Source: Octopus sinensis | Taxonomy: Eukaryota | Direction: 5' to 3' | DNA: 64,000 nt | NCBI RefSeq assembly: GCF_006345805.1 | Contig: NC_042998.1 | Location: 200,012,001-200,076,000 of the forward strand | Shown here: in pieces, positions 5,213-60,345 of the stretch | Layout of the letters: each line of letters starts with the position of its first letter | Position numbering within the stretch: the stretch's first letter is position 1 | Program-made: the position numbers and the translations under genes | The notes under the pieces: model-generated | Seen by the model: only the letters and a program-made list of their open reading frames with translations | Told to the model about the DNA's origin: nothing | Databases searched by the model: none

Positions 5213-5768
5213 TGATAAAAACGGTAAGATAACAAAAGAAAGAAAAAAACCTCGATATTATGTAAATAGAGGAATTTATCTGTAAATGTAATATGTGACA
5301 ATTATTCGTTAGCCAAGATAAAATTCCGAGTTTCGGATGCCGAGGTGGAAATCCACGCCACCATCTCTTCAGTTATCCGGCGTTCGGAAAAACGCGATGA
5401 AAATTGACCGTTATACAAAGGTAAATTACTGTGTTATTGACCGCTATTTAGATAAAAGAGCTATTCGAATGACCGCTAAGTAAGGTAAGAGGGTAAAAGG
5501 TTCATAGTATTCGCGTAAGCGCACCTGTTCATACCTACACATGTGCGACCGCACACCTACGTGGGTACGCATACATTCATCCACTCACACTTGAAAAACG
5601 TACTCATCTTCACTCGCAACCATTGCTAAATATGTATGTAAATACATACAAACACACATAACTGGCCGGATAACTGAAGGGATGAGGTGTGGATTTCCAC
5701 CTCGGCATCCGAAACACGTTCTTTTATCTTGGCTACCGAATAATTGTCACATATTACATTTACAAATA
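5213..5768. mobile_element. Fold-back element in (TA)n: about 105-bp inverted arms (5277-5381 / 5665-5768), each with a hammerhead-like motif
   Basis: Arms are reverse complements with a few mismatches. Motif GGATAA-CTGAAGA-GATG..CATC-CGAAAC..TTATCT. Confidence 0.75.
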
Positions 5769-5884
5769 TATATATATATATATATATAAATTCTGTTGTG
5801 TCTGTGGAGAGTCATTCTCTTTTAGTGCCTTATTATTTAACACACTCACAGGTGAAATTTCCACTTATTTCTTATTTTTATTTT

Positions 5885-5921
5885 CTAAAATTTTCGTTGC
5901 GTCTTGCAACCTTTTCAATAG
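5885..5921 (-). ncRNA. Candidate minimal hammerhead ribozyme, U3-A8 core variant
   Basis: Minus strand CUA-UUGAAAA-G-GUUGC(AAGAC)GCAAC-GAAAA-UUU|UAG inside a roughly 150-bp element between (TA)n tracts. Stem I is only 3 bp. Confidence 0.45.
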
Positions 5922-5957
5922 TCTTGACTCTCAAAAACAATATATATATATATATAT

Positions 5958-6244
5958 GGAGGCGCAATGGCCCAGTGGTTAGGGCAGTGGACACGCGGTT
6001 TCGATTCCCAGACCGGGCGTTGTGCGTGTTTATTGTGCGGAAACACCTAAAAGCTCCACGAAGCTCTGGCAGGGGGGGTGATCCCTGGTGTACTCTTTCA
6101 CCACTCTTTCGCCCACTCTTTCTTCTGATGGCCTGCTCGCTTAGCCAGCGGGGTGGCGTTATTCGAAGGCGAACGCATTGTGACCAGCGATGTGTAACAA
6201 CATCTGATGGTCTGGTCGGTCACGTGATCACGTGGTCACGTGAT
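5958..6244 (+). mobile_element. tRNA-derived SINE family C
   Basis: A box TGGCCCAGTGG, B-box-like GTTTCGATTCC, 3' tail of CACGTG(A/G)T repeats, flanked by (TA)n. Confidence 0.8.
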
Positions 6245-6947
6245 ATATATATATATATATATAACAAATATAAGTTACTGGTAATTTAATATTATAGCTT
6301 CTAGTGGTGATATATTAATGAGTATGTAGTGTTGTGTTAACATTTGAATAATGATATAATGTATGTCACTCACGAAAAATATTAGTTACATTAATTTCAA
6401 TCGTGTTATTGCAGTTTACTATTAATACCGATACAATGTACATTGGTTTATATGTTTATTTCTTTTAGCTTTATTAAGGTTAGTGTTTAATCCTGCCAAT
6501 AAATTGATTATTTGATACAATGAGCTTATACTTTTATATCATACTACGGAAGACGGAAGATTTTATAAGTTTGTATGACTTAATAGATTTATCTCTGTTT
6601 AGTTACGTATTTAGTAGTTGATTGTAATTTACTTAATGAATTTATTTATCGGTACGGTTATACTTAGGGTAAATGTGCTTGAAAGCTGTAGTGTTTTTTT
6701 TGGTTTGTTTGTTCCCAAGCAACACTTAGTTTATTGCTGTTGACACCGCCGGATTGAATGGTACTGCCCACGTATGGAAACAATAATGGTATATGTGGGG
6801 CAGCTGATGATGGAGGTATGTTGGATAGTTGGTATTGGTGTTTTCGTATATGTGGAATAGTATTATTGGATTCTTGGTATGGCTGTGGAATAGTATCATA
6901 ATACATCCCTTTGATATATATATATATATATATATATATATATATAA

Positions 6948-7058
6948 TAAGAGGCTTCCAAATAGTAAAGCGTTCTGCTAGAACACAAAAAGGGATAAAT
7001 TCATGAAAGGAATGAAAATTAAAAACATTTACTATCTCAACTATATCCCACACCAGAT
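6948..7058. mobile_element. Linear copy of the family that forms the perfect hairpin at 34541-34658
   Basis: aggcttccaaata..gctaga.acacaaaaagggataaattcat is shared with 34550-34603. Confidence 0.65.
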
Positions 7059-7097
7059 TTATATATATATAAATATATATATATAAATATATATATA

Positions 7098-57124: not shown

Positions 57125-57510
57125 AGGCGCAGGAGTGGCTGTGTGGTAAGTAGCTTGTCTACCAACCACATGGTTCCGGGTTCAGTCCCACTGCGTGGCA
57201 TCTTGGGTCTTCTGCTATAGTCCCGGGCCGACCAATGCCTTGAGATTGGATTTGGTAGACGGAAACTGAAAGAAGCCCGTCGTATATATGTATATATATA
57301 TATATGTGTGTGTGTGTGTGTGTGTTTGTCCCCTAGGATTGCATGACAACCGATGCTGGTGTGTTTATGTCCCCGTTACTTAGCGGTTCGGCAAAAGAGA
57401 CCGATACAAAAAAATAAGCCCCGGGGTCCAGTTGCTCGATTAAAGGAGGTGCTCCAGCATGGCCGCATTCAACTGACTGAAACAAGTAAAAGAGTAAAAG
57501 AGTAAAAGAG
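57125..57510 (+). mobile_element. SINE family A, full length
   Basis: As 7911-8345. Confidence 0.9.
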
Positions 57511-58172
57511 ATATATTCTGGCAAAGACTTCGTGTATATTTCCTCGTACCATGGAATATCAATGGGTATTATATATTTAAATTTACAGCATGCCTCATGC
57601 ATAATATGCTGTAAATTTTACAAATTATGATTAATAATTATACACACACGCGCACACACGCACACAACAAGAGAGAGAGAGAGAGAAAGAGAGAGAGAGT
57701 GAAAATAGCTTATTATATTATAAATATTAATAAAAAAATGAAAAAAATGAACATGATTAAACATAGATACGTAAAGAAACAGAGAGAGACACACAAATGT
57801 TGTTTAAATATGGAAATAAAAATTGTTTGGTGTTGGATATTCATCGTGCACAGTGTTCCGAGTCAATTTAATAAACGTCGCAGGTGGACACTCGAAATAA
57901 ATAAATAGACAAAATTCTTTCACTATTATAAAAAAGTTAAAAAGTATTGGAGACCTTAGATATAAAAAACAATGTGCGATTACGTCTATTTATGTGGGAG
58001 CTCTGGCTTACAGTGCATGAGCATCATTAGGAAATACATAATGTAAGTGTAAAGTTTGGTAAAAATTGGTTCAGAAAGAATTGCGGAAATGAATAGACAT
58101 TATACCGGCATATCACAACTTATTTATACTATATATAATATATATACTATATATATAAACATATATATATAT

Positions 58173-58380
58173 ATGACCTCGTGAGTACTGCTGGCGATTT
58201 GTTTCCTCTGTCTTCCCTTCTCGGGATCTTTCCTTCTCCTATGTTTCCGACGAAGAGCTTCGCTCGAAACGTTAAACCCTTCTTCTTCCCTTCTTTCCTG
58301 CGCGTCCAATAATACTTTATTTGTTCCACGTCCTCGCGTTGTTGTGTTTTTTTTGTGTTTTCTTGTTTGGATTAACTTCA
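58173..58380 (+). mobile_element. Short hammerhead-bearing element (motif 58243-58277)
   Basis: GUUU-CCGACGA-A-GAGC(UUC)GCUC-GAAAC-GUU|AAAC. Copy of 7572-7788, between (TA)n tracts. Confidence 0.75.
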
Positions 58381-59047
58381 TATATATATATATATGTGTG
58401 TGTGTCTGTGTGTGTATGTGTGTGTGTTTGTGTGTGTTGTATTTATGAGTGTGCACATGTGTGCACGTGGGTGTACACTAAATTTAACACAAAACACTGG
58501 TCGCTTCGAAGATATAACATACTTATCAGTGTAAGTACAAATATTTTGCATTGCTGGAAGGTCACACTAGATCACAGAACTTCTTGGCCACCCAGCAATA
58601 TCTGCACCATATTCCACCTATATATACATAAGGAACTGATAAACTAACTGTAGTTTGCCAGTAGCCTTTATTGTGTCACTAAGTTACTAAATGACGAAAG
58701 CAACTGTTCGTAATAATTTGCAATTACTTATGTCCTGTCTGGTGAAAGACAGGAAAAAAAAGAAGAAAATTGAGGTAATTAATATTGACTACGATTAATT
58801 TGAAGAAAATATAACATTTGAGGCTTAAAGGTAAAACTGATCTTTAAACGAAGCAAGTGATAGCTAAGGTTGTACATCACATCAGGTTTATTGTTCTGTG
58901 CCTGTCTAGTCCCTCATTTCCTGTAAGTCACAGTAGCAAACCACGTATAGAATGTATGTATGTATGTATGTATGTATGTATGTGTATACATATATGTATA
59001 TATATATATATATATATTATATATATATATATATATTTAATATACCT

Positions 59048-59438
59048 AGGCTCAAGAGTGGCTATGTGGTAAGTAGCTTGCTAACTAACCACATGGTTCC
59101 GGGTTCAGTCCCACTGCGTGGCTTCTTGGGCAAGTGTCTTCTGCTATAGTCTCGGGCCGACCAATGCCTTGTGAGTGGATTTGGTAGACGGAAACTGAAA
59201 GAAGCCTGTCGTATATATGTATGTATATATGTATGTGTGTGTGTTTGTCCCCCTAACATTGCTTGACAACCGATGCTGGTGTGTTTACGTCCCCGTCACT
59301 TAGCGGTTCGGCAAAAGAGACCGATAGAATAAGTACTGGGCTTACAAAGAATAAGCCCCGGGGTTGAGTTGCTCGACTAAAGGCGGTGCTTCAGCATGGC
59401 CGCAGTCAACTGACTGAAACAAGTAAAAGAGTAAAGAG
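59048..59438 (+). mobile_element. SINE family A, full length
   Basis: As 7911-8345. Confidence 0.9.
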
Positions 59439-59744
59439 CAAAATATATATATATATATTTATCTTTCTATCTCTCTCTCTCTCTCTCTCTCTCTCTCTCT
59501 CTCCAAAAACCACTGAACCATGACAGACTAGCCCAGAAACGAAAAAAGTCCTTTTAATTCCATATTGCTTTCTTAATTCCACGTTTCTCTTCCTCACCCC
59601 AACCAACCTCCCACACTGACCCTTAAAATAGCAAACAATCGTTAGCTACACTCAAAATAAAAAATTCTAGGAAGGCAGGTTGATTCGTCTCAAATTCATT
59701 GTACACTCTTAAATATATCTCCTTCTGTATATATATATATACTA

Positions 59745-60345
59745 CCAAACAATAGAAATTCTCTTCCACACCTAGAGACACGTGCGATCGGACTGAAAAC
59801 TCTCATAGAGTGAGAAAGTTCGGAAGTGAACACTATAAAAATTTACATCTAAAATTCTAACAATGGCCAGAATATTAAAAAAATACCTTTAAAGATTAAA
59901 TATATAAACCAATTATAAACGAGTCCGATCGCACGTGTCTCAAGGAGTGCTGGAGAAATTCTATTTTGGATATATCTGGGGTACTTCAGTGTTCTCATAA
60001 CTCAGTGTTTGCTTCTTCCATTGGTGTAAGTAAGTATTTCATTTATTTCTTACCGTATTTATCGCTGACGAGGAGAAAATTCTTATGAATTAACTCTGAA
60101 ATTGGGACCGATACGATAATAACGGAATCTTTTAGAAATTTCTGTCGGCTTCCTTCCAGACGCCTGCTTATAGAGATAAATTATATGGTTATAGACAATT
60201 TGTCTATTTTCTGCATATTTGCCATTATAATTTTTTTTTCTTTTGCCTTTGTTTATAAGGAGTTTATAAATTTAACCTTTAAAGGTAATTTTTAATATGC
60301 TGGCCATTGATAGAAATTCTTTCGAAAAAATTTATCCTATCTTAT
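59745..60345 (+). mobile_element. Element between (TA)n with 5' inverted arms (59751-59794 / 59922-59966) and a degenerate hammerhead (60060-60113)
   Basis: gagacacgtgcgatcggact is inverted. UAUCG-CUGACGA-GGAG..CUCU-GAAA..|CGAUA. The 3' part is homologous to 40905-41145. Confidence 0.65.

What the first reader, a model, noticed from the sequence alone, without database searches (positions are those of the whole stretch)
5213..60345. Recurrent fold-back (inverted-duplication) insertion architecture
Seen: seven independent elements have an inverted duplicate arm, usually with one side extending further: 5213-5768, 8401-8700, 34541-34658, 34832-35086, 40822-41145, 49508-49882, 59745-60345. Nearly all abut microsatellites. 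Three families also appear as unpaired copies (6948, 3887, 60130), so the arms are not fixed TIRs of MITEs. Established: Penelope insertions often carry an inverted partial pLTR at the 5' end. Inference: a shared mechanism (cDNA self-priming or template switching during integration in (TA)n) is generating palindromes at about 1 per 9 kb. These are potential dsRNA substrates for ADAR editing or siRNA if transcribed.
Basis: partly seen in the sequence, partly recalled or inferred. Interest (0 to 1): 0.75.

Follow-up and report, generated by a model that had tools for sequence, protein, structure and literature searches.

The report
Two-ended Penelope retroelement insertions in octopus
The seven hairpin-shaped stretches are real, in a layout already described for Penelope-like jumping genes (two come from coding elements, the rest likely from their passengers), and across the genome their two arms nearly always end at two different fixed points, which likely means both cut DNA ends start copying the RNA rather than one copy folding back.

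Summary
All seven inverted repeats are real. They are head-to-head insertions from six repeat families of an octopus-like genome. Two families carry Hydra-type Penelope RT and GIY-YIG genes, two are hammerhead-bearing tandem units (retrozyme-like), one has a tRNA-like head, one is unresolved. They are not MITEs. Each family has two fixed 3' ends, A and B, 33-170 nt apart, and variable inner junctions. In three samples fetched with tail-free queries, 43 of 44 pairs with both ends at A or B were A+B. In one young family 10 of 25 pairs have sequence unique to each arm, and 4 share almost none. One fold-back cannot build these unless deletions follow. Priming from both nicked target ends at two RNA start sites fits best, and matches published in-vitro data (PMC11167929). 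The layout is known; I found no paper that states this mechanism. The scan noted it before in other genomes. The 1-per-9-kb density is local. ADAR or siRNA relevance is untested. No raw reads were available for the junctions.

The parts
5213..5768 (-). E1: long arm 5213-5658 ending at site A (64-nt tail), inverted arm 5663-5768 ending at site B; 3' end of a Hydra-like Penelope element, hammerhead-like core in both arms, (TA)n on both sides
8401..8702 (+). E2: inverted arm 8401-8482 ending at B, forward arm 8495-8702 ending about 30 nt short of A; oldest family, no ORF found in its 1.1-kb shared sequence
34442..34660 (-). E3: arm with 96-nt tail (34442-34603, end A) and inverted arm (34605-34660, end B); piece of a tandem hammerhead unit of about 435 nt
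34680..35080 (+). E4: inverted arm 34680-34882 carries the 153-nt tail (end A); forward arm 34886-35080 is tail-less (end B) but starts about 170 nt further 5'; Hydra-like Penelope element
40822..41143 (+). E5: inverted arm 40822-40907 (end B), forward arm 40906-41143 (end A, 85-nt tail); 478-nt tandem hammerhead family
49500..49901 (-). E6: long arm 49507-49777 (end A, 33-nt tail), inverted arm 49779-49894 (end B), inside a 7-bp duplication; longer copies begin with a tRNA-like head
59745..60343 (+). E7: forward arm 59922-60343 (end A, hammerhead-like core 60065-60101); inverted arm 59745-59923 reads through the unit junction, holds about 55 nt that the forward arm lacks, and ends at neither A nor B
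3888..4006 (-). solo copy of the E6 family ending at A
6934..7048 (-). solo, older copy of the E3 family ending at B

Best explanation
These are head-to-head, two-armed insertions of Penelope-like elements and what are likely their non-coding passengers, and they are likely built by two target-primed cDNAs, not one fold-back. Shown: each family has two fixed 3' ends (A, B), two-armed inserts pair one of each, inner ends vary, and a target duplication can enclose both arms. Inferred: the GIY-YIG endonuclease nicks both strands of an AT-rich target, mostly (TA)n; each 3' end primes reverse transcription, one at A and one at B of the element's RNA, probably one RNA or RNAs of one source locus; both cDNAs stop at variable points and their ends are joined at short overlaps. 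An inverted duplicate results where the two cDNAs cover the same stretch, and a plain inversion where they do not.
For: Pairing: 43 A+B, 1 B+B, 0 A+A among the 44 pairs with both ends at A or B, from 85 unique loci fetched with tail-free queries (classes read by hand, counted; P about 3e-12 if ends were independent). Solo copies end at A (10) and B (15), so both sites are used alone. An automatic count over all 236 unique loci gave 91 A+B, 2 A+A, 1 B+B (half of those queries held the tail). Both A+A cases carry flanking DNA in the inversion. E4 family, 25 A+B pairs: tail-less arm starts further 5' in 10, tailed arm in 9, level in 6; 4 pairs have arms with at most about 8 nt in common. One further insert has 1.5-kb arms, 98.5% alike, again A+B. 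Shared 7-13-nt flanks enclose 8 of 12 A+B inserts of the E6 family. Arms are closer to each other than to the median other copy in 66 of 82 rows (a few rows are the same insert twice). Junction overlap of 2 nt or more in 14 of 25. In vitro, an Anolis Penelope protein cleaves and extends both target strands and starts at two internal RNA sites that are the tail's ends (PMC11167929, parts 1-2 of 4 read).
Against: Eight of 52 two-armed loci in the tail-free samples have one end at neither site, and 35 of 129 in the automatic count (some are script errors or run off the locus). Of the window's own seven, E2 and E7 do not fit A+B. The own partner is the single closest copy in only 24 of 82 rows, and in E6 the arms are hardly closer than random copies (8.8% against 9.4%). 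In PMC11167929 the start site did not differ between the strands, so strict pairing has not been seen in vitro. Loss of the palindrome centre after insertion could also give arm-specific sequence, and gene conversion could make arms alike. Samples are the best 30 of 800-4200 candidates, ranked by likeness to the window's copy. No ORF link was shown for E2, E3, E5/E7 or E6.
Confidence: 0.72

Rival explanations
1. Fold-back self-priming of one cDNA, with endonuclease cutting at B and later deletions at the hairpin centre.
For: Many junctions have short overlaps or small palindromes. Arms are more alike than random copies. Two A+A loci that copy flanking DNA (L006, L096) look like true fold-backs. 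PMC3846280 Discussion (read) favours self-priming.
Against: Needs an extra deletion in 10 of 25 pairs of a young family (arms 1.7% apart), up to about 1.2 kb from one arm only (L125), and 4 pairs share no arm at all. It does not explain 15 solo copies ending at B.
Confidence: 0.17
2. Two independent RNAs or two successive insertions into one (TA)n tract.
For: The own partner is the closest copy in only 24 of 82 rows; (TA)n hides duplications in five families.
Against: Independent events would give A+A and B+B as often as A+B; seen 1 of 44. Arms meet directly, without target DNA between them, and one duplication encloses both in E6.
Confidence: 0.07
3. MITEs or foldback DNA transposons with terminal inverted repeats.
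For: TA flanks and fixed outer ends.
Against: Inner ends vary, one arm has a tail, solo 5'-truncated copies are common, and two families run into RT and GIY-YIG coding sequence.
Confidence: 0.01
4. Assembly or library chimeras.
For: Three window pairs are 98-99% alike. No listed contig of four public runs bridged the E3 or E4 junction (short-read contigs break at such repeats, so this says little).
Against: Arm divergence follows family age, from 1.7% to 11.7%; ends obey family-specific sites; target duplications enclose both arms.
Confidence: 0.03

Closest known systems
Insertion units of endonuclease-positive Penelope-like elements: 5'-truncated copy, adjacent inverted copy, optional tail (PMC3846280, passages and Discussion read; PMC8557442, passages and Hydra section read)
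   Same: Head-to-head arms, tail on one end, partial tandems, (TA)n targets, target duplication around the whole unit, hammerhead motif.
   Different: Tails here run to 64-170 nt in five of six families, against 30-40 nt described; the A+B pairing is counted; arms without overlap occur; these papers invoke self-priming or endonuclease resolution.
PAc, Poseidon element of Anolis carolinensis (PMC11167929, parts 1-2 of 4 read and searched for 'invert', 'twin', 'dimer')
   Same: Two fixed internal start sites bounding the tail; both target strands cut and extended; AT-rich targets.
   Different: In what I read the paper does not link the two sites to inverted arms and saw no strand preference; E1 and E4 are Hydra-like, not Poseidon.
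Hydra clade of C-terminal-endonuclease PLEs (PMC8557442 section 11)
   Same: E1 and E4 families: RT then GIY-YIG, DKT, CxxC..E and CxH motifs, (TA)n insertion, hammerhead; CxCx5C linker in E1.
   Different: E4 has asparagine-rich stretches and no linker motif that I could find; no tree was built.
Animal non-LTR retrozymes (PMC7229834, passages; bioRxiv 10.64898/2026.07.22.740005, parts 1-2 of 5)
   Same: E3 and E5/E7 families are low-GC tandem units with one hammerhead-like core per unit and no ORF found.
   Different: Units of about 435 and 478 nt; they insert with the same two-armed Penelope layout; cleavage and circular RNA untested.
L1 twin priming
   Same: A second target end primes inside the RNA and gives an inverted segment.
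   Different: In L1 the second site varies and arms hardly overlap; here it is a fixed site and arms mostly overlap.

Membership tests
EN+ Penelope-like element (E1, E4) | RT followed by GIY-YIG endonuclease, in sense, upstream of the terminal repeat | tested here: met
   ORF pieces in L271, L272, L273, L274; 535 homologues at E<=1e-10. Pfam GIY-YIG only below its cut-off (E 0.0025, 0.028) and no RVT_1 hit.
EN+ Penelope-like element (E2, E3, E5/E7, E6) | Linked RT and GIY-YIG ORF | tested here: inconclusive
   None found within 1.5-kb flanks. E6 copies have a frame from an ATG through the hammerhead to end A, open in 8 of 24; other scan notes report a coding parent, not checked.
EN+ Penelope-like element (all six) | Tail between two fixed 3' ends; inverted 5'-truncated copy | tested here: met
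EN+ Penelope-like element (all six) | Hammerhead motif in the terminal repeat | tested here: inconclusive
   Core plus closed stem in 19, 13, 18, 13, 24 and 5 of 30 loci (E6, E7, E1, E3, E4, E2) against 0-3 of 30 in flanks; Rfam found none in the window; cleavage not tested.
Hydra clade | DKT for DKG; CxxC and CxH around E and N | tested here: met
   SDKT in L271; CxxC..E and CxH in E1 and E4; 101 of 120 listed homologues DK[TS], 0 DKG.
Hydra clade | CxCx5C linker; RWK motif | tested here: inconclusive
   Linker in L274 (E1), not seen in E4; RW[KR] only in homologues, 67 of 120.
Hydra clade | Placement in the RT tree | not tested
   No reference set was at hand.
Non-LTR retrozyme (E3, E5/E7) | Head-to-tail units, each with a hammerhead motif | tested here: met
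   Cores 437 and 478 nt apart in real tandem copies.
Non-LTR retrozyme (E3, E5/E7) | Self-cleavage and circular RNA | not testable with these tools
   Needs RNA experiments.
MITE | Same arm boundaries in all copies | tested here: not met
   Inner ends vary by hundreds of bases; solo copies common.

The most novel reading that the evidence does not exclude
Penelope-like elements integrate by obligatory two-ended priming: a dimeric enzyme holds one RNA at two fixed start sites and extends both cut target ends, so tail, inverted arm and solo copies are outcomes of one reaction, used alike by coding elements, retrozymes and a tRNA-headed repeat; in octopus this makes self-folding double-stranded RNA substrates in one step.
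Probability: 0.5. Interest if true: 0.7.

Novelty: new member of a known kind. Interest (0 to 1): 0.5.

Why it matters
How Penelope-like elements make their tandem and inverted structures is called unresolved in PMC8557442, and the published proposal is self-priming (PMC3846280). The A+B pairing and the arms without overlap turn this into a direct test for the in-vitro system of PMC11167929. They also tie retrozyme-like repeats to Penelope enzymes by their insertion anatomy, and warn annotators against filing such hairpins as MITEs. A role in octopus RNA editing is possible (PMC5625713, passages: octopus is rich in potential dsRNA and lizard Penelope is heavily edited) but nothing here shows it.

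Tried and rejected
Raw-read check of the junctions: only contigs of public runs were held; four runs laid on 34200-36200 gave no listed piece bridging the E3 or E4 junction, which shows nothing either way. No RNA holder listed. Rfam: no match. A strict hammerhead scan found the core of only one of the seven. ARAGORN: no tRNA in 10 E6 loci, so the head is tRNA-like by A and B boxes only (5 of 30 loci by regex). Pfam and PDB did not name the RT; the Atlas gave no answer. An editing footprint carried into the inserts: no consistent excess of A>G over T>C in six families (higher in 2, lower in 4). A link of E6 to the R4-like LINE ends upstream of some copies was read as LINE insertion into its (TAA)n run. 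The window's (TA)n density is only a little above average, 15.6 against 12.0 runs per 10 kb. Paper searches that found no statement of two-ended priming for Penelope, from listings only; also 19, 24, 43, 44. Most subscription papers are outside the library, and no supplements were opened; those of PMC11167929 may bear on the claim. Duplicate loci of one insert were dropped before the counts (33).

Full report
Observation. A self-comparison of the masked window gives 12 local inverted alignments, against one weak hit in ten shuffles. The genome has 2.72 Gb and the closest named homologues of an element's protein are from octopods. E5 and E7 are one family, 60130 is part of E7, and E3 and E4 extend beyond the stated limits by a tail. 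E6 lies within a 7-bp duplication.

Families. I searched the genome with each family (841-4178 first-look candidates, best 30 loci kept) and mapped the loci on real copies as references. E1 and E4 run upstream into RT and C-terminal GIY-YIG coding sequence with most of the marks given for the Hydra clade in PMC8557442 section 11. Pfam supports this only weakly and no tree was built. E3 and E5/E7 are tandem units of about 435 and 478 nt with one hammerhead-like core per unit, like non-LTR retrozymes. Longer E6 copies begin with a tRNA-like head, then (TAA)n, a hammerhead-like core and a 33-nt tail; other notes of this scan call it the end repeat of a coding element, which I checked only as far as an open frame in 8 of 24 copies. 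E2 shares about 1.1 kb among copies without an ORF that I could place.

Anatomy. In every family the arms meet 5' end to 5' end. Outer ends fall at two sites, A and B, separated by 33 (E6), 64 (E1), 85 (E5/E7), 96 (E3), 153 (E4) and 170 nt (E2). Inner ends vary. To avoid selecting for the tail I used three samples with tail-free queries: of 85 unique loci, 43 were A+B, 1 B+B, 0 A+A, 8 had one arm ending elsewhere, 27 were solo (10 A, 15 B, 2 other) and 6 ran off the locus (read by hand). One of those six proved A+B with 1.5-kb arms. The automatic count over 236 loci gave 91 A+B, 2 A+A, 1 B+B and 35 other two-armed cases; both A+A loci invert flanking DNA as well. Five of the window's seven are A+B; E2 and E7 are not.

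Mechanism. A fold-back of one cDNA can only copy what that cDNA holds, so the tailed arm should always reach furthest 5'. In 25 A+B pairs of the young E4 family the tail-less arm reaches further in 10, the tailed arm in 9, and in 4 the arms share almost nothing. The window's E4 is such a case, and E7's inverted arm holds about 55 nt missing from its partner. Shared 7-13-nt flanks enclose 8 of 12 A+B inserts of E6, so both arms came in one event. Arms are closer to each other than to the median copy in 66 of 82 rows but closest in only 24: a common template is suggested, not shown. PMC11167929 reports that a Penelope protein cuts and extends both target strands, starts at two internal sites bounding the tail, and is predicted to be a dimer; it does not discuss inverted arms. 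Two primed cDNAs, one from each site, joined at short overlaps (14 of 25 with 2 nt or more), explain tail, inversion, solo A and solo B copies together. This step is inferred. Fold-back followed by cleavage and central deletion, close to the proposal in PMC3846280, is not excluded.

Density and RNA. With one set of criteria, 40 evenly placed 10-kb stretches held 34 local inverted repeats, the window 9. Only 2 of the 34 belong to these six families and 6 to one SINE; others may be unrelated Penelope inserts, which I did not classify. The two main SINEs cover about 5% of the sample, the six families about 0.3%. E1 and E5 fold stably as RNA, as any such repeat would. No RNA data could be laid, and no editing footprint shows in the copies.

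Novelty. The layout, one-sided tail and (TA)n targeting are in print. My searches found no paper that states two-ended priming for these elements (listings only). This scan has 24 notes with those words in at least 13 genomes; I had recorded the same reading before seeing them, and they are not independent evidence. The elements are new members of known kinds; the value lies in a counted, testable rule for an unsolved mechanism. L1 twin priming is cited from recall.

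Noticed in passing
window 51492-54912 (+): Non-LTR retrotransposon with a 617-codon open RT frame (Pfam RVT_1 E 3e-28), preceded by (TAA)n-type repeats; looks like the R4/Dong group (label recalled).
   Followed up: partly
window 39775-40690 (+); 47901-48293 (-): Pieces that read like a Tc1-type transposase and a Helitron-type helicase (labels recalled).
   Followed up: no
window 61321-62041: Inverted pairs of an abundant SINE, 78-86% alike, also able to fold.
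   Followed up: partly
window 45969-46024; 30611-30635: A 25-bp-arm hairpin and a small strict hammerhead-like core outside the seven elements.
   Followed up: no
window 6280-6913 (-): Decayed frame with a YVGST word, possibly another GIY-YIG fragment; no Pfam hit.
   Followed up: partly
L068, L074, L079, L086, L147, L221: Inverted arm lies just 5' of the forward arm's start, ends at neither A nor B and has no (TA)n on its flank: a second class, like L1 twin priming.
   Followed up: partly
L241-L269 (E1 family): Inner ends of many short copies cluster at reference 1350-1390, just 5' of the hammerhead core.
   Followed up: no
L124, L134, L271 (E4 family): Asparagine-rich stretches between RT and endonuclease, as described for rotifer Penelope elements.
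   Followed up: no
L002, L004, L005, L017, L027, L029 (E6 family): Both arms reach the tRNA-like head, giving a nearly fixed palindrome centre.
   Followed up: partly
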